A stretch of DNA of 64,000 bases from Oscillospiraceae bacterium (GTDB lineage: Bacteria > Bacillota > Clostridia > Oscillospirales > SIG627). The notes below the pieces were generated by a model that did no database searches, was not told the origin of the DNA, and saw only the letters and a program-made list of their open reading frames with translations. Made by a program: the position numbers and the translations under genes. The stretch spans positions 4,360 through 68,359 of the forward strand of contig JAYFRN010000043.1 in assembly GCA_034925865.1 (NCBI GenBank), given 5' to 3'. Shown piece by piece: positions 5,076 through 39,152 of this stretch. How positions within the stretch are numbered: the first letter of the stretch is position 1; every line of letters begins with the position of its first letter.

Positions 5076-6095
5076 ATGATAACAAAACAAAGCAATAATC
5101 AGATTTCAAACATTCAAACATATTGCGTCGGTGAACGCGGTGAGAATTTTGCTTTTGACGGCGCTTGTGAGCGGCTCATGGATTGCCTCGGAGAAAAGGA
5201 TCTCGGCTATTGGCTGATTGCGGGTATTACAGGAGATTGTTTCGCACAGGTATATCCCAAAAATCATACCTTTTACAGCGACCGTTATTGCGTATCCGAT
5301 TATAATATACTGTATCATGATGACTGCACGAGTTATATAGAGGGTATATTTGATAAAATGGGGTATGCTTGCACCTATATCCCGAAAGAAAGACTTTTAT
5401 CAAATAAGGAAATGTATCGGCAAACACTTATAGCTTACATTGACAAAGGCTTACCAATCATGCAATTCAAGGGAAATTACAGCCTAATTTGCGGTTATGA
5501 AGAACATGGTAATATTCTTTTGCAACGATACCCATGTAACGATAATTTTGAAAAGTTTTCACTGGATGAAACCTATTTTGCTGACAATGAATTGAAGGGT
5601 TGGATTTTTATCGGAGAAAAAAAGGAACAGAAAATACTTGCCGATATTTACCGGGAAGCTGTTTTAAAAATGCCCGAAATTTTAACAACAGAAACTGATA
5701 AGTATTACTTCGGAGCCAGAGCATTCTATGCGTGGGCTAAGGATATAGAAAATGGTTTTTATGACGGTAAAACGCAAGATGAAGTAGATTTATGGGGAAC
5801 ACATACAAGCTTTGTCTGCGATTTTGAAACAATTGCAGCAACATCGGGACGGTTTTTATCAAAAGCGTTAGAATTTAATCATGACTTGAGCTTTATTTCG
5901 GAAATCATTTCTATTCTCGGCAGGCAAGGCACATATGCAAACGGCGGGCTTGAAGATTTAGGAGGCGGATTTAATGTTACGCTTGAGGCGTTGCAGAACA
6001 TAGAGAAGCGGACAAAAATTGCCGCAAAAATCCGAAAATTTGGGGACTGTATTGATCAGGTTGTTAAGATATTGAATGAAAATATTAAAGGATGA
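5076..6095 (+). CDS. stand-alone paralogue of the C-terminal domain of the 892-aa MerR protein (339 aa), function unknown
   Basis: GGAGA RBS at 5064-5068 then ATG 5076; the track ORF begins at an upstream GTG at 4935. By eye roughly half the residues match MerR protein aa 544-892 (MITKQSN, AGITGD, NKEMY, YIDKG, GYEEHG, GEKK.QK, LGGGFNVTLEALQ, KIAA.IR). Confidence 0.65.
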   Translation: MITKQSNNQISNIQTYCVGERGENFAFDGACERLMDCLGEKDLGYWLIAGITGDCFAQVYPKNHTFYSDRYCVSDYNILYHDDCTSYIEGIFDKMGYACTYIPKERLLSNKEMYRQTLIAYIDKGLPIMQFKGNYSLICGYEEHGNILLQRYPCNDNFEKFSLDETYFADNELKGWIFIGEKKEQKILADIYREAVLKMPEILTTETDKYYFGARAFYAWAKDIENGFYDGKTQDEVDLWGTHTSFVCDFETIAATSGRFLSKALEFNHDLSFISEIISILGRQGTYANGGLEDLGGGFNVTLEALQNIEKRTKIAAKIRKFGDCIDQVVKILNENIKG

Positions 6096-6099
6096 ATAA

Positions 6100-6414
6100 G
6101 AAAATAAACATACAGAAAGCGAGAGAAAGTCTGAGCATGTCTACGACAGCATCGGAAATGTAAAAACGCTCGGAAAACCTGAATTCGGCGATATACTCAA
6201 TACAATAAGCTGGCGTTATGGCTACACCCACGATCTTGCGTGGTCGATAATCGGGCTTGACGAGTGCATAAACTGGGATGACTGGAAGTCGCATTATTAC
6301 GGCGATATGCTAGAAGTCATTCTCTTGAAATTCAAAGAAAATGATGAAGCTGTGCTTGAATGCATTAAAAAACTGATAACCGCTCTCGGCGAAAATCATG
6401 AACGAAAGATATAA
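6100..6414 (+). pseudogene. start-less 104-codon open frame, likely 3' gene remnant
   Basis: Frame is open from the TAA at 6097-6099 to the TAA at 6412-6414 (...KTLGKPEFGDILNTISWRYGYTHDLAWSIIGLDECINWDDWKSHYYGDMLEV...). There is no ATG/GTG/TTG until very late. Its first codons are homologous to the spacer after the 892-aa gene. Confidence 0.3.
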
Positions 6415-6441
6415 TCACCTCTATATAAGGAGAATAAGAAA

Positions 6442-6951
6442 ATGAGCGATAAGATAAAATATTCAAAATTTGAGTACATTGAAATACCCGCACTGCGTTT
6501 CATAGGCATAGACGCATGGCGAACAAAAGAGGACTGGGGCGATATGTGGCGGCGTAAGGATGAATTTCTGCCACAGCTTGAATCCATGAAGGAAAGTCTC
6601 GATTTGACAATACCGCATGTATGCGCTTTTTGCCACCACGACGACGGTGAAGTTGACGTTGTTAACCGTTATTTGATTGGAAGATTTTTCAAAGCTGATA
6701 CCACTGTACCAGACGGATATGATTACCACGATTTGAAACCGCAAATAGTTGCATATGCCGTATTTGATAATGGCGTGGAGAATGAATTTTTTTTAAGATA
6801 TGAAATTACACGGGATAAAATATTGGGCGACGGTATCGGGATTCCTTATCCAGTAGGATATTGGCACGGAGAAGTATACATCGATAAAACTCCGGTTGAT
6901 CCGACGTTTTGTTGCGGTGTCCTGTTTGCCTGTAACAAAGGGAAAGTATGA
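6442..6951 (+). CDS. putative GyrI-like / AraC-effector-binding-fold small-molecule-binding protein (169 aa)
   Basis: AAGGAGA RBS. N-terminal FEYIEIPALRFIGID strand motif is typical of GyrI-like domains. Assignment is by pattern only. Confidence 0.45.
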   Translation: MSDKIKYSKFEYIEIPALRFIGIDAWRTKEDWGDMWRRKDEFLPQLESMKESLDLTIPHVCAFCHHDDGEVDVVNRYLIGRFFKADTTVPDGYDYHDLKPQIVAYAVFDNGVENEFFLRYEITRDKILGDGIGIPYPVGYWHGEVYIDKTPVDPTFCCGVLFACNKGKV

Positions 6952-6987
6952 TTATTCTAAAAATATAGTATTGAAAGGAAAGATAAA

Positions 6988-7524
6988 ATGAAACAGAAAC
7001 CCCTTGAAAACGAGCATGTTATTGTACACAGCTTTACTTCCGGGGATTGGCGGGATTTACGTGATATTGCATTATCGAACGCTGCTTCTGATTTTGCATA
7101 TTGCGATGAACAATGGCCTACTGACGAAGAATCTATAAAAGGAATGGCTGATTACTTGGCAACAAACGATAGCATGTCAGCAATTTACGCTAAAGACATA
7201 GATAAGGTTGTATGCTTTGTTAATTTCAACAGAATAACTGATGAAAAATATCTTGATATCGGTCATGTTATGAATCTTGAATTTGCCGGTCGAGGGTATG
7301 AGTACGAAGGCCTTCGCCTGTTATATAAATTTGCATTTGAGACAATGGAGATTGATGGAATTCGTTCATATTGGGCGTTTGATGATAAGGTAAAGTTAGA
7401 ACCGCTCATGAAGCTTGGAATGAAAGTCACGAGGAAATTTCAAAACAATTACTTCGGTGGCAAAAAGGGAACCTTCACGGGTTGCGAACTTAAGGTGTCG
7501 AGAGAAGAATTTTATAAAGGGTGA
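6988..7524 (+). CDS. GNAT-family N-acetyltransferase (178 aa)
   Basis: GAAAGGAAAG RBS. The core LDIGHVMNLEFAGRGYEYEGLRLLYKFAFE resembles the GNAT acetyl-CoA-binding motif A region. Confidence 0.6.
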   Translation: MKQKPLENEHVIVHSFTSGDWRDLRDIALSNAASDFAYCDEQWPTDEESIKGMADYLATNDSMSAIYAKDIDKVVCFVNFNRITDEKYLDIGHVMNLEFAGRGYEYEGLRLLYKFAFETMEIDGIRSYWAFDDKVKLEPLMKLGMKVTRKFQNNYFGGKKGTFTGCELKVSREEFYKG

Positions 7525-7531
7525 TGATATA

Positions 7532-7681
7532 ATGGACGAAAAAATCACACCAACAAAATTTGAGTACATAGAAATACCTGCCCTGCGTTTTATCGGCATA
7601 GATGCGTGGGACTGGGGCGATATGTGGCAACTTTTACTTTATCTTCCGCCGCTGAAATTTCATCATATCTTGCTTTATTAA
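7532..7681 (+). pseudogene. truncated duplicate of the 5' end of the 6442-6951 gene
   Basis: MDEKITPTKFEYIEIPALRFIGIDAW-DWGDMWQ matches MSDKIKYSKFEYIEIPALRFIGIDAWRTKEDWGDMWR with a 5-codon deletion. Similarity is lost after ~33 codons and the frame stops at 7681, next to repeat copy A. Confidence 0.55.
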
Positions 7682-7686
7682 CTAGT

Positions 7687-7790
7687 CATTTAAATAATTA
7701 CCGCTTAAAGAGAGAAAAGCCTTTGGTATATGGGCTTTTCTCTCTTATAAGGTAGGACATATTTAATTGCCGAGTTAATAATTGAACCAC
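7687..7790. repeat. palindromic intergenic repeat, copy A (inverted relative to copies B, F and G)
   Basis: Perfect 14-bp inner stem AAGAGAGAAAAGCC (7708-7721) / GGCTTTTCTCTCTT (7733-7746). Outer arm TTTAATTGCCGAGTTAATAA. Confidence 0.7.
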
Positions 7791-7894
7791 CGTGTACCGA
7801 ATGGTATGCATGGTGGTGTAAGAGGTCGGTCAATCAATTAATAGATGACCTCCAACTCGATTATATATTTATGATTCTGATTCAATAAATCCAC

Positions 7895-7923
7895 TTTACA
7901 AATGATTATTAGAGTTATATAAT
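7895..7923 (+). promoter_or_regulatory. candidate sigma-A promoter for the giant lipoprotein gene
   Basis: TTTACA (7895-7900), 17-nt spacer, TATAAT (7918-7923), ~60 nt upstream of ATG 7984. Confidence 0.45.
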
Positions 7924-7983
7924 ATAGTATATAACCTGGCACTAATAAAAGATCTTGCCATAAATTTAATGTTTTGTTGTTAA

Positions 7984-35684: not shown

Positions 35685-35721
35685 TTTTTTAAGCAATTTT
35701 TCGCGGAATCATTATAACATT

Positions 35722-35768
35722 AAACCATGATTTTGATATTCAGTCGGATATTGAATCATGGTTTTATT
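35722..35768 (+). terminator. valS terminator
   Basis: AAACCATGATT ... AATCATGGTTT stem followed by a T-rich run. Confidence 0.7.
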
Positions 35769-35908
35769 GTAGTGTAACAATATCGGATATACTTATGTTC
35801 ACTGTATTTATTTGCATTTTTGTGAGACACTATTTATGCGCTAATATTTATAATCATTGAATGCAACAGAAAAGATTAGCTGTGATTTAGAAATCTCTCC
35901 CTATAGTA

Positions 35909-35937
35909 TTGACAATTATATATAAATATGATATAAA
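35909..35937 (+). promoter_or_regulatory. near-consensus sigma-A promoter for the rSAM operon
   Basis: TTGACA (35909-35914), 17 nt, TATAAA (35932-35937). Confidence 0.5.
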
Positions 35938-35965
35938 TATTATGTAATATTGTATTTTAATTAAT

Positions 35966-36253
35966 ATGTGGTTTAATGTTATTATGAAGATCAAAAGCGG
36001 GTATATTTTTAGAAATATTGCCGATCAGCCTATGGTGATCCCGGTATCTGACAGAATTGCCGATTTCAACGGAATAATATCCCTTAATGAAGCCGGCGCT
36101 TTTCTCTGGCGGCTTCTTGAGCCCGGAGCTGAACGCGACGAGCTTATTTCCGCTTTGCTCGGCGAGTATGATTTATCACGTACTGATGCCGAAAAAGACG
36201 TAGATGATTTTATAAAGATTCTTTCCGAAAGAAATGTGCTGGAAAATCAATGA
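35966..36253 (+). CDS. PqqD-family peptide-binding (RRE-type) protein
   Basis: ~90 aa with the typical PqqD-family shape (FRNIADQPMVIPV...ISLNEAGAFLWRLLE...ELISALLGEYDL...DVDDFIKILSERNVL). The start could be ATG 35966 or 35984; neither has a good SD. The stop overlaps the rSAM start. Confidence 0.75.
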   Translation: MWFNVIMKIKSGYIFRNIADQPMVIPVSDRIADFNGIISLNEAGAFLWRLLEPGAERDELISALLGEYDLSRTDAEKDVDDFIKILSERNVLENQ

Positions 36254-37359
36254 CGCATATCACGAGGCGCCCGGTCAATGCGACTCTTGAACTGACAGTC
36301 AGATGCAATCTAAGCTGTAAAATGTGCCTGGTCCGACGCTCCGCGGAAGATATTTCATCAAGCGGAACAAACGAGCTTAACGCGGATCAATGGCTTTCGC
36401 TTGCGCGTGAAATGTTGAATGCGGGGACTCTTTCGTTGTTGATCACAGGCGGTGAGCCGATGCTCCGCTCCGACTTTTCAAAAATATATTCGGGAATCGC
36501 ATCAATGGGCTTTATCACGTCGCTGTATACAAACGCCACTCTTCTCACGCCTGAGATATGCTCTGTCTTAGAAAAGCATCCGCCGCATAAAATCGGAGTT
36601 ACCGTATATGGCGCTTCTCCGGAAACATACGGACGAGTATGCGGAAATTCCGGAGCATATGAAAAGATGAAAAATGGAGTCGGTTTTTTAAAACGTCTTC
36701 CGTCCGTCATGTCTCTGAGAACAACTATAATAAAAGATAATTTATGCGATCTGGAACGCATACGGGAATTTGCTGTTGAAACAGCGATATCTGCAGGCAA
36801 AAAGATTCCCTTCAATATCAGCCGCTTTGTCACAAAGCCGGTGCGCGGCGCGAAAGCGGATGTCGATTCCGTAAGGCTTTCGCCTGAGGAAAATATAAAA
36901 ATGCTTTTTGGTTCTGCGAAAGAGCTTATACAAAAACTATATATGGACAATTCCGAAGCCGCTGAAAAATTCATTCAAAGAGAGAAATGTATTTCCGAAG
37001 AAGATCAGGAAAAATTAAATTCTTCCGAAACCTGTATGTACGGGTGCTCGGCGGGAATAAATTCGTTTACAGTTTCCTGGGATGGAAAGCTTTACGGTTG
37101 TCAACTTCTTTCGGATGTATATACATTGCCGCTTGAAAGCGGATTCATAAAGGCATGGGAAGAGCTTCCCGAAAAAGTCGTGTGTTCTTCCGTTCCTGAA
37201 AGATGCAAAAAATGCGAGCTTTCACAAAACTGTGTCGCTTGTCCTGCCACAAGACTTGCCGAAACCGGTATGCTCGACGGTTGCCCGGAATATACTCGGC
37301 AAGAAGCCGTGTATATGAAAAAACTTATCACAGACACTCTACAAAAAACAAAATTATGA
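36250..37359 (+). CDS. radical SAM enzyme with C-terminal SPASM-type auxiliary Fe-S domain
   Basis: CNLSCKMC (CxxxCxxC), GGEPML, and C-terminal CMYGCSAGINSFTVSWDGKLYGCQ...CKKCELSQNCVACPA. Confidence 0.85.
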   Translation: MTHITRRPVNATLELTVRCNLSCKMCLVRRSAEDISSSGTNELNADQWLSLAREMLNAGTLSLLITGGEPMLRSDFSKIYSGIASMGFITSLYTNATLLTPEICSVLEKHPPHKIGVTVYGASPETYGRVCGNSGAYEKMKNGVGFLKRLPSVMSLRTTIIKDNLCDLERIREFAVETAISAGKKIPFNISRFVTKPVRGAKADVDSVRLSPEENIKMLFGSAKELIQKLYMDNSEAAEKFIQREKCISEEDQEKLNSSETCMYGCSAGINSFTVSWDGKLYGCQLLSDVYTLPLESGFIKAWEELPEKVVCSSVPERCKKCELSQNCVACPATRLAETGMLDGCPEYTRQEAVYMKKLITDTLQKTKL

Positions 37360-37378
37360 CAGGGGGATTGAAATTAAA

Positions 37379-37669
37379 ATGAAAATGAAAAAATACTTAC
37401 CGCCAACAATAAAGTTCGAAGAGCTTGAGCTTTTCGAAAGAATAGCCGAGGTATGCTGGGGCTATAACAGGGCGACATGGGTAGGTACAAACAGAGACGG
37501 AGAGACAGTAACCGTTTCCGCTACATGGACTAACGGCTGCAAGGGCGGCATACCTGCCGAATTTATCGCCGCGCTTGAAGCCGCAAATGTTGATTCAACA
37601 CAATTCAGCAACAGTATAGCAAATACAAAAGACAGCAGTATTGATTTTCCCGACAGCGTTATCGCATAG
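37379..37669 (+). CDS. small protein (96 aa): candidate substrate/precursor or accessory protein
   Basis: AGGGGGA RBS ~11 nt upstream. Sits between the rSAM and kinase-like genes. Two Cys (C26, C54), three Trp between them, Ser/Thr/Asp-rich tail. Confidence 0.6.
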   Translation: MKMKKYLPPTIKFEELELFERIAEVCWGYNRATWVGTNRDGETVTVSATWTNGCKGGIPAEFIAALEAANVDSTQFSNSIANTKDSSIDFPDSVIA

Positions 37670-37675
37670 ACTCTG

Positions 37676-38578
37676 ATGGATATCTGTCAAATAACAACTG
37701 AAGGTATGTGCTTTACGATAGGCGGTTTTTGCGTTCGCGCGCAGGATCGTTCTGAAAAAGCAAAAGCATTCAGACTTCCTTCGCGCTTTAACGCATTCGC
37801 GGGAAAGCGCGAAGCTGTTTTTACCGACTGGTGCCGTCAGGTTGATCAGACGCTAAAAGTTCCTGTTGAATCGCCGCTTCACATATCGGAATGCGGTCTT
37901 GATTCAATGCGGGTTTATAATTCTGAAAAAGGATATATTTTCAGATATCAGCAGCATGGCTGTGAAGAGCTGATACTCGATGTTACGAGCGATTATAAAG
38001 CTGTCGATATAATCAAAGACATTACATCGCCGGATTCTCATTTCGATCTCGCGGGAGAACTCGGCAGAATGTTTTCTTATGCCGTTCTGACAGATGCGAT
38101 TGTTTTTCACGGTGCGGCAATAGAATATAAAGGCACCGGTATTTTGATATGCGCCGCTTCCGGAGTAGGGAAGTCGACGCATGCGGCTTTATGGCGTGAT
38201 TATGAAAATGCGATAATATTAAACGGAGACAGAGGGCTTTGCCGTGAAACCGATGGCGGAATATATCTGTATGGTTCTCCGTGGTATGGATCGTCCGGAG
38301 AATGTATTAACCGCCGGGTGCCGTTGTCGGCTATTGTGCTGCTGGAACGCGGAGACGAGAATCATGCGGAAATTATGCCATCTCCGTCCGCTTTCAAGGC
38401 TCTTGCTTGCCGTGCGGCGGCGCCGCTTTGGGATTATAAATATAAATCGCTTGCTGTTGACAAAATATTAAATCTATGCGAAAATATACCGTGTGTAAGG
38501 CTTTGCTGCAAACCCGATCCCGACGCTGTCACAACGCTGAAAAACTGCCTTATAAAAACAAACAGTATAGAAGTGTAA
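37676..38578 (+). CDS. HPr-kinase C-terminal-domain-like P-loop protein
   Basis: FHGAAIEYKGTGILICAASGVGKSTHAALW...ILNGD follows the HprK_C-type pattern HG..v...G.GvLi.G.SG.GKS. Starts 6 nt after the previous stop. Confidence 0.65.
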   Translation: MDICQITTEGMCFTIGGFCVRAQDRSEKAKAFRLPSRFNAFAGKREAVFTDWCRQVDQTLKVPVESPLHISECGLDSMRVYNSEKGYIFRYQQHGCEELILDVTSDYKAVDIIKDITSPDSHFDLAGELGRMFSYAVLTDAIVFHGAAIEYKGTGILICAASGVGKSTHAALWRDYENAIILNGDRGLCRETDGGIYLYGSPWYGSSGECINRRVPLSAIVLLERGDENHAEIMPSPSAFKALACRAAAPLWDYKYKSLAVDKILNLCENIPCVRLCCKPDPDAVTTLKNCLIKTNSIEV

Positions 38579-38582
38579 TTTA

Positions 38583-39056
38583 ATGACAGAAAAAAAGGAA
38601 AAAAGAATAGTTGCCTCGCATTTGTTTTTTCCACTTGTAAAATCACTTCTCGGCGAAGGCTATGATGTTAAATTCACTGTAAGCGGAATAAGCATGAGTC
38701 CGCTTATCAGGGACAATACGGATGCGGTTATTATTACCGCAATTAACCGTTCTTTGAAAAAGGGCGATATAGTCTTATTCGAATCGCCGTATGAAAAGGA
38801 CAGATACATACTTCACCGTATAACCAGGATATTCCGCGGCGGAAAGTCGCTTCAGACAACGGGCGATGGCTGCCTTGGACGCGATATGCCGATTAAAACT
38901 GATTGCGTTATTGCTATAGTAAATACTATTATCCGCGGAAACATGATTATTGATTGTTCTGCGATCAAATGGAAATTTGTATTCTTTTTGTGGCGCACCG
39001 CTTTTCCGATACGTGCGCTTTTAATAGGAGCGATTAACCGCAGAAGCAGAAGCTGA
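38583..39056 (+). CDS. S24/S26-family serine peptidase (signal-peptidase-I-like)
   Basis: VSGISMSPLI (Ser nucleophile motif), KKGDIVLF, ILHRI, TTGDG. Starts 4 nt after the previous stop. Confidence 0.65.
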   Translation: MTEKKEKRIVASHLFFPLVKSLLGEGYDVKFTVSGISMSPLIRDNTDAVIITAINRSLKKGDIVLFESPYEKDRYILHRITRIFRGGKSLQTTGDGCLGRDMPIKTDCVIAIVNTIIRGNMIIDCSAIKWKFVFFLWRTAFPIRALLIGAINRRSRS

Positions 39057-39152
39057 AGAATTACCTATTAAGAAAACAATTGATTGCACAGGCGGTAATC
39101 AATGGATGCTGAGGGTAATGCTGTTTTATATTTGCTGTTTAATAACATCTTT

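What the first reader, a model, noticed from the sequence alone, without database searches (positions are those of the whole stretch)
37379..37669. Atypically long (96 aa) candidate substrate protein inside the rSAM operon
This is the only small ORF within the operon. It has a strong AGGGGGA RBS and sits between the rSAM and kinase-like genes.

Sequence layout:
- A charged, helix-like N-terminus (KYLPPTIKFEELELFERIAEV) that could serve as a leader for the PqqD-like RRE.
- A Trp/Thr/Gly-rich core bounded by the only two cysteines (C26-WGYNRATWVGTNRDGETVTVSATWTNG-C54).
- A Ser/Thr/Asp-rich tail (STQFSNSIANTKDSSIDFPDSVIA) that would suit a Ser/Thr kinase.

96 aa is long for a classical RiPP precursor, and it lies downstream rather than upstream of the maturase. 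It may therefore be a new precursor type or an accessory protein. I found no conventional short precursor ORF between the promoter (35909) and the first gene.
Basis: inference. Interest (0 to 1): 0.6.

Follow-up and report, generated by a model that had tools for sequence, protein, structure and literature searches.

The report
Long precursor protein of radical-SAM/kinase cassette
The 96-codon gene is real and is most likely the substrate of the surrounding enzymes: a short recognition "leader" followed by a small folded, two-cysteine domain. It belongs to an unnamed protein family that always sits between a radical-SAM enzyme and a kinase-like protein, and the cassette is a variant, not described in the papers I could search, of a recently published phosphorylated-peptide system.

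Summary
**Observation:** confirmed. The ORF 37379-37669 (+) encodes 96 aa with a GGGGGA ribosome-binding site.

**Family:** it belongs to an unnamed family of about 59 clusters (86-143 aa), with no Pfam or NCBIfam model.

**Synteny:** in 12 of 12 other contexts the gene order was PqqD, radical SAM, this protein, then an HprK/ScmC-like protein. A SipW-type peptidase usually follows.

**Sequence features:**
- Residues 6-28 are the most conserved part and carry the YxxPx[L/I/F] motif that lasso and LPP leader peptides use to bind PqqD-type recognition proteins.
- C26, W27, G28, C54 and N82 are invariant or nearly so.
- 95% of members end in Ser; the window's copy ends in DSVIA.
- AlphaFold gives an unstructured residue 1-30 and a confident small fold for residues 31-90, with no PDB match.

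**Closest known system:** linear polyphosphorylated peptides (LPP; Popov 2026, PMC13381572). LPP has a 35-200 aa precursor, an RRE, an HprK-like kinase and a SipW-like leader peptidase, so 96 aa is not atypical. Differences here: an added radical SAM/SPASM enzyme, cysteines in the core, and Asp/Glu where LPP has its phospho-acceptor Ser3.

**Other points:** no other conserved short ORF exists in the cassette. Earlier notes of this scan describe similar cassettes in other genomes. The chemistry is untested.

The parts
35966..36253 (+). Discrete PqqD-type RiPP recognition element (95 aa).
   Evidence: Pfam PqqD 4.7e-15. The best NCBIfam hits are lasso PqqD chaperones, below cut-off. The only PDB hits at E < 0.1 are four RRE-leader complexes: TbiB1 5v1u 2e-8, TfuB1 6jx3, PbaB1 9x90 and LppB 9x8z. 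D78 and F82 align with LppB D70 and F74, the Tyr-anchoring Asp and the pocket-dividing Phe.
36250..37359 (+). Radical SAM/SPASM enzyme (369 aa) with no RRE domain of its own.
   Evidence: Radical_SAM 1.3e-18. Motifs: CNLSCKMC at residues 19-26, CX12GX4C at 266-284, CX2CX5CX2C at 319-331, and C345. The best NCBIfam hits are all far below cut-off: ScmE 97.9 bits against 400, AhbD, WgkB, StsB and PapB. It is 41-50% identical to the radical SAM genes next to other members of the precursor family.
37362..37368 (+). Ribosome-binding site GGGGGA, 10 nt before the ATG.
   Evidence: Read directly from the sequence.
37379..37441 (+). Predicted leader, residues 1-21. It includes Y6-x-x-P9-x-I11 (37394-37411), the invariant F13 and E20, and the near-invariant L18.
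   Evidence: Invariant Y6, P9, F13 and E20. The register of LppA (Y at -16, P at -13, E at -2) puts the cleavage site after residue 21. This boundary is inferred, not shown. AlphaFold predicts coil with pLDDT 60-74.
37442..37669 (+). Predicted core, residues 22-96, plus the stop codon. Conserved positions: A23, C26 (37454-37456), W27, G28, C54 (37538-37540) and N82. The C-terminus is ...PDSVIA.
   Evidence: Conservation. AlphaFold predicts strands 31-37 and 43-49 and a helix 60-68, with pLDDT about 91-92 in residues 31-50 and 61-70. No fold match in the PDB. No Pfam or NCBIfam family.
37676..38578 (+). HprK-like / ScmC-like P-loop protein (300 aa), the presumed peptide kinase.
   Evidence: Weak hits only: Hpr_kinase_C 9e-4, ScmC 8.5e-5 and HprK_rel_A/B 4e-3. 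The P-loop region aligns to HPr kinase 2qmh. The orthologues in most of the syntenic loci fetched by protein look-up are scored as Pfam PF27840 ScmC. Invariant residues: H145, G165, K166, T168, N183-G184-D185.
38583..39056 (+). SipW/archaeal-type signal-peptidase-I-like protein (157 aa), the presumed leader peptidase.
   Evidence: Sub-threshold hits: sigpep_I_arch 1.7e-9, SipW 4e-5, and Peptidase_S24 and S26. S37 (in SGISMSP), H78 (in LHR) and D95 (in GDG) are invariant in 8 homologues. This is the same Ser/His/Asp set as LppS S29/H68/D93.

Best explanation
The 96-aa product is the ribosomally made substrate of the operon.

1. Residues about 1-21 are an unstructured leader. Its Y6-x-x-P9-x-I11 motif docks as an extra beta-strand on the discrete PqqD protein, as in lasso and LPP systems.
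2. The PqqD protein presents the substrate to three enzymes.
   - The radical SAM/SPASM enzyme most probably cross-links the core at the invariant C26/W27 and C54. My best guess is thioether bridges of the sacti-, ranthi- or QhpC type.
   - The HprK/ScmC-like P-loop protein probably phosphorylates a Ser. In most family members this would be the conserved C-terminal Ser.
   - The SipW-like Ser/His/Asp peptidase removes the leader, probably after residue 21.
3. The product would be a roughly 75-residue cross-linked mini-protein.

Shown here: the gene, the family, its strict synteny, the conservation gradient, the leader motif, the catalytic residues, and the co-variation of radical SAM clade with precursor subfamily.

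Inferred: binding to the RRE, the chemistry, the cleavage site, export and biological role.
For: **Family and synteny**
- The family is real and unnamed.
- In 12 of 12 other contexts, from Ruminococcaceae, Anaerocolumna, Sharpea, Eubacteriales and other Bacillota, the gene sits directly after the PqqD and radical SAM genes and directly before an HprK/ScmC-like gene (one appears split or truncated). A SipW-like gene usually follows.
- No other small ORF is conserved outside the big genes in 8 cassettes.

**Leader**
- Residues 6-28 are the most conserved part and carry the [Y/W]xxPx[L/V/I/F/A] RRE-binding motif (PMC10368454; PMC13381572).
- The PqqD protein's only PDB relatives at E < 0.1 are RREs crystallised with such leaders. 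It keeps the Asp and Phe that hold the Tyr.
- Unrelated Cys-rich small ORFs with the same leader register (Y to C at +20) sit next to HprK-like, radical SAM and PqqD genes in other genomes. That is a conserved leader with swapped cores.

**Enzyme-substrate pairing**
- Radical SAM clade A pairs with this family and clade B with the other Cys-rich peptides.
- The two leader-bearing peptides found in loci with no radical SAM hit (L037, L039) have no Cys.

**Structure and precedent**
- AlphaFold predicts a coil leader and a folded core.
- An experimentally characterised chassis of precursor, RRE, HprK-like kinase and SipW-like peptidase exists, with precursors of 35-200 aa.
Against: - There is no experimental or expression evidence.
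- The region after the leader is conserved well enough to align over its full length and is predicted to fold with pLDDT above 90. Classical RiPP cores are short and unstructured, so an ordinary accessory protein is not excluded.
- The LPP phospho-acceptor Ser3 is Asp or Glu here.
- The window's copy lacks the terminal Ser that 95% of relatives have.
- The HprK-like protein has N-G-D where lasso kinases have D-D, so kinase activity and target are uncertain.
- All family assignments of the three enzymes are below curated cut-offs.
- The window's operon lacks the exporter and the nucleotidyltransferase seen in several relatives.
Confidence: 0.7

Rival explanations
1. It is an LPP-type precursor that is only phosphorylated and leader-cleaved. 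The radical SAM enzyme acts on something else or only on a cofactor-like partner.
For: The RRE, HprK-like and SipW-like chassis works without any radical SAM enzyme in LPP clusters. Many relatives of this genome carry HprK-PqqD-S26 cassettes without a radical SAM gene nearby.
Against: The radical SAM gene is immediately upstream of this family in 12 of 12 contexts. Its clade co-varies with the precursor subfamily. The enzyme has no RRE of its own, so it needs the shared PqqD protein. The invariant Cys/Trp residues have no role in a purely phosphorylated peptide.
Confidence: 0.1
2. It is an accessory protein of the cassette, for example an immunity factor, a scaffold or a calcium-binding partner, and not a substrate. 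The true precursor is encoded elsewhere.
For: AlphaFold predicts a compact fold for residues 31-90. The alignment covers the full length. EF-hand-like DxDxDG loops occur in 12 of 47 members. At 96 aa it is longer than classical radical SAM RiPP precursors.
Against: Its N-terminus carries the RRE-binding motif in the same register as proven LPP and lasso leaders. No other conserved small ORF exists in or beside 8 cassettes. The own genome holds only one other leader-bearing ORF, and that one belongs to a second system. LPP precursors reach 200 aa.
Confidence: 0.12
3. It is a lasso-peptide precursor.
For: It has a YxxPxI leader motif, its PqqD protein scores best against lasso B1 proteins, and an HprK-like kinase is present as in paeninodin-type clusters.
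Against: No B2 transglutaminase-type protease (PF13471) was found anywhere in the 98.7%-complete genome. No cyclase gene lies in the operon or in the syntenic cassettes. There is no Thr or Ile at position -2, and no Gly1...Asp/Glu ring motif at the expected register.
Confidence: 0.02

Closest known systems
Linear polyphosphorylated peptide (LPP) clusters of Bacillota: LppA, K, B, S, D, N (Popov et al. 2026, Nat Commun, PMC13381572)
   Same: - A discrete PqqD-type RRE that keeps the Tyr-anchoring Asp and Phe.
- An HprK-like P-loop protein.
- A SipW/archaeal-type Ser/His/Asp peptidase.
- A precursor in the 35-200 aa range with a conserved N-terminus starting YxxPx(V/I/L/F) and an invariant Glu at the -2 register.
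- An MsbA-like exporter, NTP_transf_5 and capsule-locus neighbours in several syntenic relatives.
   Different: - A radical SAM/SPASM gene is always present directly upstream. The paper never mentions one.
- The second half of the leader is FxFEELxLxEK(V/I) rather than VLxHQxIxFET.
- The phospho-acceptor Ser3 is replaced by Asp or Glu.
- The core has invariant Cys/Trp and a predicted fold.
- The gene order is B, radical SAM, A, K, S rather than A, K, B, S, D, N.
- The window's own operon lacks D and N.
Kinase-tailored lasso peptides (paeninodin type; BsfA/K/B1, PMC10368454)
   Same: - The YxxPxL-type leader motif bound by a B1 RRE.
- An HprK-like kinase acts on the precursor before leader removal and is stimulated by the RRE.
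- In the paeninodin type the acceptor is the C-terminal Ser, and 95% of this family end in Ser.
   Different: - There is no B2 protease and no macrolactam cyclase.
- Leader removal is by a serine peptidase.
- A radical SAM enzyme is present.
- The substrate is two to three times longer.
SynChlorMet (SCM) cassette, defined only in silico (NCBIfam TIGR04248-04250 ScmD/ScmC/ScmE; Pfam PF27840 ScmC)
   Same: The trio of a PqqD homologue, a radical SAM/SPASM enzyme and a ScmC (HprK-like) protein. ScmE and ScmC are the best-scoring NCBIfam models for the two enzymes. Most of the syntenic orthologues looked up are scored as PF27840.
   Different: All scores are far below the equivalog cut-offs: 97.9 against 400, 22 against 125, and 15.7 against 100. 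There is only one radical SAM gene, where SCM has two. A SipW-like peptidase is added. From my own knowledge of the TIGRFAM description, no precursor was identified for SCM.
QhpC/QhpD/QhpE of quinohemoprotein amine dehydrogenase (analogy from my own knowledge, not tested here)
   Same: A small protein of about 80-110 aa, rather than a short peptide, carries a leader, is thioether-cross-linked at Cys by a radical SAM/SPASM enzyme, and then loses its leader to a dedicated serine peptidase.
   Different: No sequence relationship was found. No dehydrogenase partner subunits are present. The recognition module and the peptidase type differ.

Membership tests
LPP (linear polyphosphorylated peptide) system | Discrete PqqD-type RRE adapted to a YxxP leader | tested here: met
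   Pfam PqqD 4.7e-15. It aligns to LppB 9x8z with D78 and F82 at the positions of LppB D70 and F74.
LPP (linear polyphosphorylated peptide) system | SipW/archaeal-type signal peptidase I with a Ser/His/Asp catalytic set, acting as leader peptidase | tested here: met
   sigpep_I_arch 1.7e-9, below cut-off. S37, H78 and D95 are invariant in 8 homologues, compared with LppS S29/H68/D93. Activity was not tested.
LPP (linear polyphosphorylated peptide) system | HprK-like kinase | tested here: inconclusive
   Only weak HprK and ScmC hits. The His and the GxGK(S/T)T P-loop are invariant, but the protein has N-G-D instead of the D-D of lasso kinases.
LPP (linear polyphosphorylated peptide) system | Precursor leader consensus YxxPxVLxHQxIxFETxxS with Ser3 of the core as phospho-acceptor | tested here: not met
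   Only Y(-16), P(-13), a hydrophobic residue at -11 and E(-2) are shared. H, Q and T(-1) are absent, and core position 3 is Asp (75%) or Glu.
LPP (linear polyphosphorylated peptide) system | No other primary modification enzyme (a linear product) | tested here: not met
   A radical SAM/SPASM gene is fixed in the cassette in 12 of 12 contexts.
Lasso peptide | B2 transglutaminase-type leader protease and Asn-synthetase-like macrolactam cyclase | tested here: not met
   PF13471 was not found in the 98.7%-complete genome. No cyclase gene lies in the operon or in the syntenic cassettes.
Lasso peptide | YxxPxL leader motif bound by a B1 RRE | tested here: met
   Y6-L-P-P9-T-I11. Y and P are invariant in the family. 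The motif definition comes from PMC10368454 and PMC13381572.
SynChlorMet (SCM) cassette | ScmC, ScmD and ScmE equivalogs above the NCBIfam cut-offs, plus a second radical SAM enzyme, ScmF | tested here: not met
   Scores are 22 against 125, 15.7 against 100, and 97.9 against 400 bits. Only one radical SAM gene is in the operon.
Sactipeptide / ranthipeptide (radical SAM thioether RiPPs) | Radical SAM/SPASM maturase with a full SPASM cysteine set, RRE-dependent | tested here: met
   CX3CX2C plus CX12GX4C plus CX2CX5CX2C plus C345. A discrete PqqD gene overlaps the radical SAM start (ATGA overlap).
Sactipeptide / ranthipeptide (radical SAM thioether RiPPs) | Cys-to-carbon thioether bridges in the product | not testable with these tools
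   Only indirect support: C26 and C54 are invariant, and the leader-bearing peptides in loci without a radical SAM gene lack Cys.
Sactipeptide / ranthipeptide (radical SAM thioether RiPPs) | Membership of a named maturase family (StsB, PapB and others) | tested here: not met
   StsB 58 bits against 625, and PapB 56 bits against 340. The StsA leader model gives only E = 0.032, and on a related peptide, not on this one.

The most novel reading that the evidence does not exclude
The cassette does not make a peptide antibiotic. It matures a roughly 75-residue, autonomously folded mini-protein. In many relatives this protein binds calcium through an EF-hand-like loop. It is covalently stapled by a radical SAM enzyme at the invariant Cys26-Trp27 and Cys54, and it is then phosphorylated or further decorated. 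This would be a protein-sized ribosomal natural product built on the lasso/LPP leader-recognition chassis, possibly destined for the cell surface or capsule.
Probability: 0.3. Interest if true: 0.75.

Novelty: new variant of a known kind. Interest (0 to 1): 0.6.

Why it matters
**A candidate substrate for an orphan cassette type.** Cassettes of PqqD, radical SAM and ScmC have been annotated for years. From my own knowledge of the TIGRFAM description, no substrate was identified for them. This family supplies a concrete, testable substrate for a Bacillota branch of such cassettes.

**A link to a characterised system.** It connects these cassettes to the LPP system, characterised only in 2026. 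One leader/RRE/kinase/SipW-peptidase chassis appears to have been combined with different primary modification enzymes: a lasso cyclase, none at all, or a radical SAM enzyme.

**A possibly protein-sized product.** The predicted folded core with invariant Cys-Trp-Gly suggests radical SAM chemistry on a small protein rather than a peptide. Few examples of that are known.

**Practical value.** The five-gene operon is compact enough (3.1 kb) for direct heterologous expression.

Tried and rejected
- **Word-indexed protein search:** a search with the single protein found only itself. The full HMMER scan was needed.
- **False top hit:** the top HMMER hit, P0002 (5778 aa, E = 3.7e-16), is an artefact. 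About 19 weak matches of 5-8 bits to one repeat add up, and I rejected it as a homologue.
- **The search for related loci:** the search with the HprK-like protein found nothing. Alignment A1 was too diverse for pattern search, so the narrower A2 was used.
- **Foldseek:** the model gave no PDB match better than E = 0.7. The family profile against PDB sequences gave only a weak EF-hand hit at E = 0.1.
- **Pfam and NCBIfam on all 47 members:** only sub-threshold EF-hand loops in 12 of them, and none in the window's copy.
- **Literature:** searches for HPr kinase + radical SAM + PqqD, for SynChlorMet, and for HprK + SPASM found nothing relevant. The LPP paper came from a lead in an earlier scan note, and I then read it myself.
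- **Lasso reading:** rejected, because no B2 protease is in the genome.
- **Other candidate precursors in the window:** the neighbouring ABC-F gene and the MacB/FtsX operon with its 48-aa Cys ORF are not part of the cassette in any of the other loci, and that ORF has no YxxP leader.
- **Promoter:** I did not pursue it.
- **Unused or unavailable:** the second structure job was not used. An RRE-leader complex cannot be modelled with the single-chain tool.

Full report
**1. Observation**

- GGGGGA lies 10 nt upstream of the ATG.
- The ORF is the third of five tightly packed co-directional genes:
  - PqqD, 35966-36253.
  - Radical SAM/SPASM, 36250-37359.
  - This ORF.
  - An HprK-like protein, 37676-38578.
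  - An S24/S26-like peptidase, 38583-39056.
- C26 and C54 are its only cysteines.
- Between valS and the PqqD gene there are only 21-38 aa ORFs, none with a comparable leader.

**2. It is a real gene of an unnamed family**

- The word-indexed search found only the protein itself.
- A full HMMER scan of 1.84 billion representatives found 11 small proteins (86-112 aa) aligned over nearly their whole length at 31-47% identity.
- The top hit, a 5778-aa protein, is an artefact of about 19 weak repeat matches adding up.
- A profile search then gave 59 clusters of 72-122 aa. All are 'hypothetical protein' or unnamed and none has a Pfam domain. Two members read from the MAG loci L044 and L045 are longer, at 143 and 132 aa.
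- No Pfam or NCBIfam model matches the window's protein.
- The family is rare. Among 401 genomes sampled from the same order, only the window's genome and one other have a strong match, and the sampled same-genus genome has none.
- valS is conserved in relatives, but the cassette after it is not.

**3. Synteny**

In every other context I could read, the family gene lies directly after the PqqD and radical SAM genes and directly before an HprK/ScmC-like gene. A SipW-like gene of about 155-170 aa usually follows.
- The 12 contexts are L042 (Ruminococcaceae UBA3903), L043 (Anaerocolumna), L044 and L045 (Bacillota MAGs), L056/57, L058, L059 (Eubacteriales MAG), L060 (Sharpea azabuensis), L068, L069, L070 and L071.
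- The downstream gene is scored as Pfam PF27840 ScmC in seven of the eight loci whose precomputed Pfam hits I could see. In L071 it is a 199-aa product with no hit, possibly split.
- Several loci add an MsbA-type ABC exporter, an NTP_transf_5 nucleotidyltransferase, a metallophosphoesterase, a LuxR/MalT-type regulator or capsule genes. The window's operon has none of these.
- An all-against-all comparison of 448 small ORFs (18-80 aa) from 8 cassettes found conserved ones only inside the large genes, in other frames or on the opposite strand. So there is no second conserved precursor candidate.

**4. Anatomy of the family**

- In 40-47 aligned members, Y6, P9, F13, E20, A23, C26 and G28 are invariant. 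L18, W27, C54 and N82 are at least 90% conserved. 95% of members end in Ser.
- Mean column entropy by region:

| Residues | Entropy (bits) |
|---|---|
| 6-28 | 0.92 |
| 29-52 | 1.78 |
| 53-56 (the G-C motif) | 0.72 |
| 57-78 | 2.53 |

- The window's copy ends ...PDSVIA, with Ser at -4. Its closest relative (55-59% identical) ends ...PNPPS.
- 12 of 47 members carry a DxDxDGxID loop that scores weakly as an EF-hand. The window's copy has a degenerate version, TNRDGETVT.
- AlphaFold2 with the 40-sequence alignment gave mean pLDDT 77.8 and pTM 0.58.
  - Residues 1-30 have no secondary structure, with pLDDT 60-74.
  - The rest shows a beta-hairpin (31-37, 43-49) and a helix (60-68), with pLDDT about 91-92 in residues 31-50 and 61-70.
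- Foldseek found no PDB match (best E = 0.7).

**5. The N-terminus is a lasso/LPP-type leader**

- Y6-L-P-P9-T-I11 fits the [Y/W]xxPx[L/V/I/F/A] motif that discrete RREs of lasso peptides and LPPs bind (PMC10368454; PMC13381572).
- The window's PqqD protein has only four PDB sequence relatives at E < 0.1, and all are RREs solved with such leaders:
  - TbiB1 (5v1u/5v1v), E = 2e-8, over the full length.
  - TfuB1 (6jx3).
  - PbaB1 (9x90).
  - LppB (9x8z).
- In the alignment to LppB, the window's D78 and F82 fall on LppB D70 and F74. D70 hydrogen-bonds the leader Tyr and F74 divides the two pockets. PbaB1, which is specific for Trp, has Gln at the position aligned with D78.
- Other genomes have unrelated Cys-rich small ORFs with the same leader in the same register (Y, P at +3, a hydrophobic residue at +5, I-A at +16/+17, the first Cys at +20). 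These sit beside HprK-like, radical SAM and PqqD genes (L052, L054, L025). One lies in the window's own genome on contig C42, with only an HprK-like gene next to it. A conserved leader with swapped cores is how a precursor family behaves.

**6. Enzyme and substrate co-vary**

- The radical SAM proteins fall into two groups.
  - Those next to this family are 41-50% identical to each other.
  - Those next to the other Cys-rich peptides are 38-49% identical to each other.
  - Between the groups identity is about 27-32%.
- The own genome's second radical SAM and PqqD pair (contig C39) belongs to the second group. So does, by type, the C42 peptide. The genome therefore seems to carry two separate systems, one of them split between loci.
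- The two leader-bearing peptides found in loci with no radical SAM hit (L037, L039) contain no Cys.

**7. The enzymes**

- Radical SAM enzyme: CX3CX2C plus a full SPASM cysteine set. It has no N-terminal RRE domain, so it needs the discrete PqqD protein. All NCBIfam hits are far below cut-off; the best are ScmE, AhbD and WgkB.
- HprK-like protein: its P-loop region aligns to HPr kinase. H145, G165-K166-x-T168 and N183-G184-D185 are invariant in nine homologues. This covers most of the H...G...GxGKS...DD motif needed in lasso kinases, but only one of the two Asp residues is kept.
- Peptidase: it is SipW/archaeal-type by its best hits, with invariant S37, H78 and D95. These correspond in kind and order to the LppS catalytic residues S29, H68 and D93.

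**8. Comparison with what is known**

The closest characterised system is LPP (Popov et al. 2026, PMC13381572).
- In LPP, LppA precursors of 35-200 aa have a conserved N-terminus, YxxPxVLxHQxIxFETxxS, and variable C-termini.
- The RRE LppB binds these precursors.
- The HprK-like kinase LppK polyphosphorylates them on core Ser3.
- The SipW-like peptidase LppS cleaves them after T-1, and this cleavage needs LppB.
- So 96 aa is not atypical for this chassis.

Using the LppA register (Y at -16), the window's leader would end at R21 and the core would begin I22-A23-E24. The invariant E20 then sits at -2, as in LPP. T-1 is replaced by Lys or Arg, and Ser3 by Asp or Glu. This boundary is an inference.

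The paper never mentions radical SAM enzymes, and I found no paper on the combination.

It is not a lasso system. No B2 protease is in the genome and no cyclase is in any cassette.

It resembles the in-silico SynChlorMet cassette in its trio of components but fails the equivalog cut-offs.

By analogy only, from my own knowledge, it recalls QhpC/QhpD/QhpE. There a leader-bearing small protein is thioether-cross-linked by a radical SAM/SPASM enzyme and then trimmed by a serine peptidase.

**9. Mechanism proposed**

1. The leader (about residues 1-21) binds the PqqD protein through Y6, P9 and I11.
2. The radical SAM/SPASM enzyme cross-links the core at the invariant C26/W27 and C54.
3. The HprK-like protein phosphorylates a Ser. 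In most members this is probably the terminal one, as in paeninodin-type precursors. In this copy it may be S93, or none.
4. The SipW-like peptidase removes the leader.

Steps 1-4 are inferred from homology and conservation. None was observed.

**10. Verdict**

The corrections are listed in the first-reader section of this report.
- The system is a new variant of a known kind: the LPP/lasso recognition chassis with a radical SAM enzyme and a protein-sized core.
- Earlier notes of this scan describe similar PqqD, radical SAM and HprK-like cassettes in at least 19 other genomes. One of them gave me the lead to the LPP paper, which I then read and checked.

Noticed in passing
L022 (G000 contig C42) 6923-13484, minus strand; L066 (G000 contig C39) 5963-7417: The same genome seems to hold a second system of this kind, split over two loci. 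On C42, a 1733-aa VWA and tip-pilin-like surface protein is followed by an 81-86 aa Cys-rich ORF with the same YxxPxI leader and a terminal Ser, then a second HprK-like gene. That locus has no radical SAM or PqqD gene. A second radical SAM/SPASM and PqqD pair sits on C39 and groups with the radical SAM enzymes that accompany this peptide type elsewhere (L052, L054).
   Followed up: partly
L023, L024, L026, L027, L030 and others (relatives G028, G006, G024, G021, G034): 26 of 36 sampled genomes of the same bacterial family carry an HprK-like gene. In those I read it is usually followed by PqqD and often by an S26-like peptidase gene, with no radical SAM hit within about 7 kb. This K-B-S order is that of published LPP clusters. 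I found no leader-bearing small ORF beside them.
   Followed up: partly
L037 5695-5832 (+); L039 8874-9011 (-): Cys-free peptides of about 45 aa (MKEY(I/V)SPELE(I/V)IEF...) with the same leader motif lie between very large secreted proteins (862-1396 aa). An HprK-like gene is nearby, with no PqqD or radical SAM hit in the 14-kb locus.
   Followed up: no
L025 (G046) 5291-8274, minus strand: This is another arrangement. An S26-like gene is followed by a 392-aa HprK-like protein fused to a PqqD domain, then a radical SAM gene, then a 55-aa two-Cys peptide with the YxxPxL leader placed after the radical SAM gene. An NTP_transf_5-like gene may lie upstream, judged by eye and not scanned.
   Followed up: no
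L070 1067-9651: Two cassettes lie side by side on one metagenomic contig. The first runs ScmC, radical SAM, a 319-aa protein, PqqD and an ABC exporter. The second runs PqqD, radical SAM, a family member, ScmC and a 154-aa protein. An unexamined 89-aa ORF lies upstream of the first.
   Followed up: no
Family alignment A3, columns matching window residues 35-46: A large subclade has a canonical DxDxDGxID calcium-binding loop between the two invariant cysteines (weak EF-hand hits in 12 of 47 members). The window's copy has only a degenerate version.
   Followed up: partly
window 35685-39152: The cassette lies directly downstream of valS. valS is conserved in relatives but the cassette is not; it is missing after valS in the sampled same-genus genome. 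GC content of the operon (0.39-0.47) is not clearly different from the flanks. This points to an accessory, probably horizontally acquired, island.
   Followed up: partly
L058 176-14339; L044 and L045 flanks: In some genomes the radical-SAM-containing cassette is embedded in capsule or exopolysaccharide loci (Bac_transf, CpsB, Wzz, LytR_cpsA_psr). The LPP paper reports the same for LPP clusters.
   Followed up: no
L044 6995-7426; L045 6995-7393: Two family members carry long C-terminal extensions rich in Pro-Thr-Pro-Lys repeats and Gly-His or Gly-Trp-Pro repeats (132-143 aa in total).
   Followed up: no
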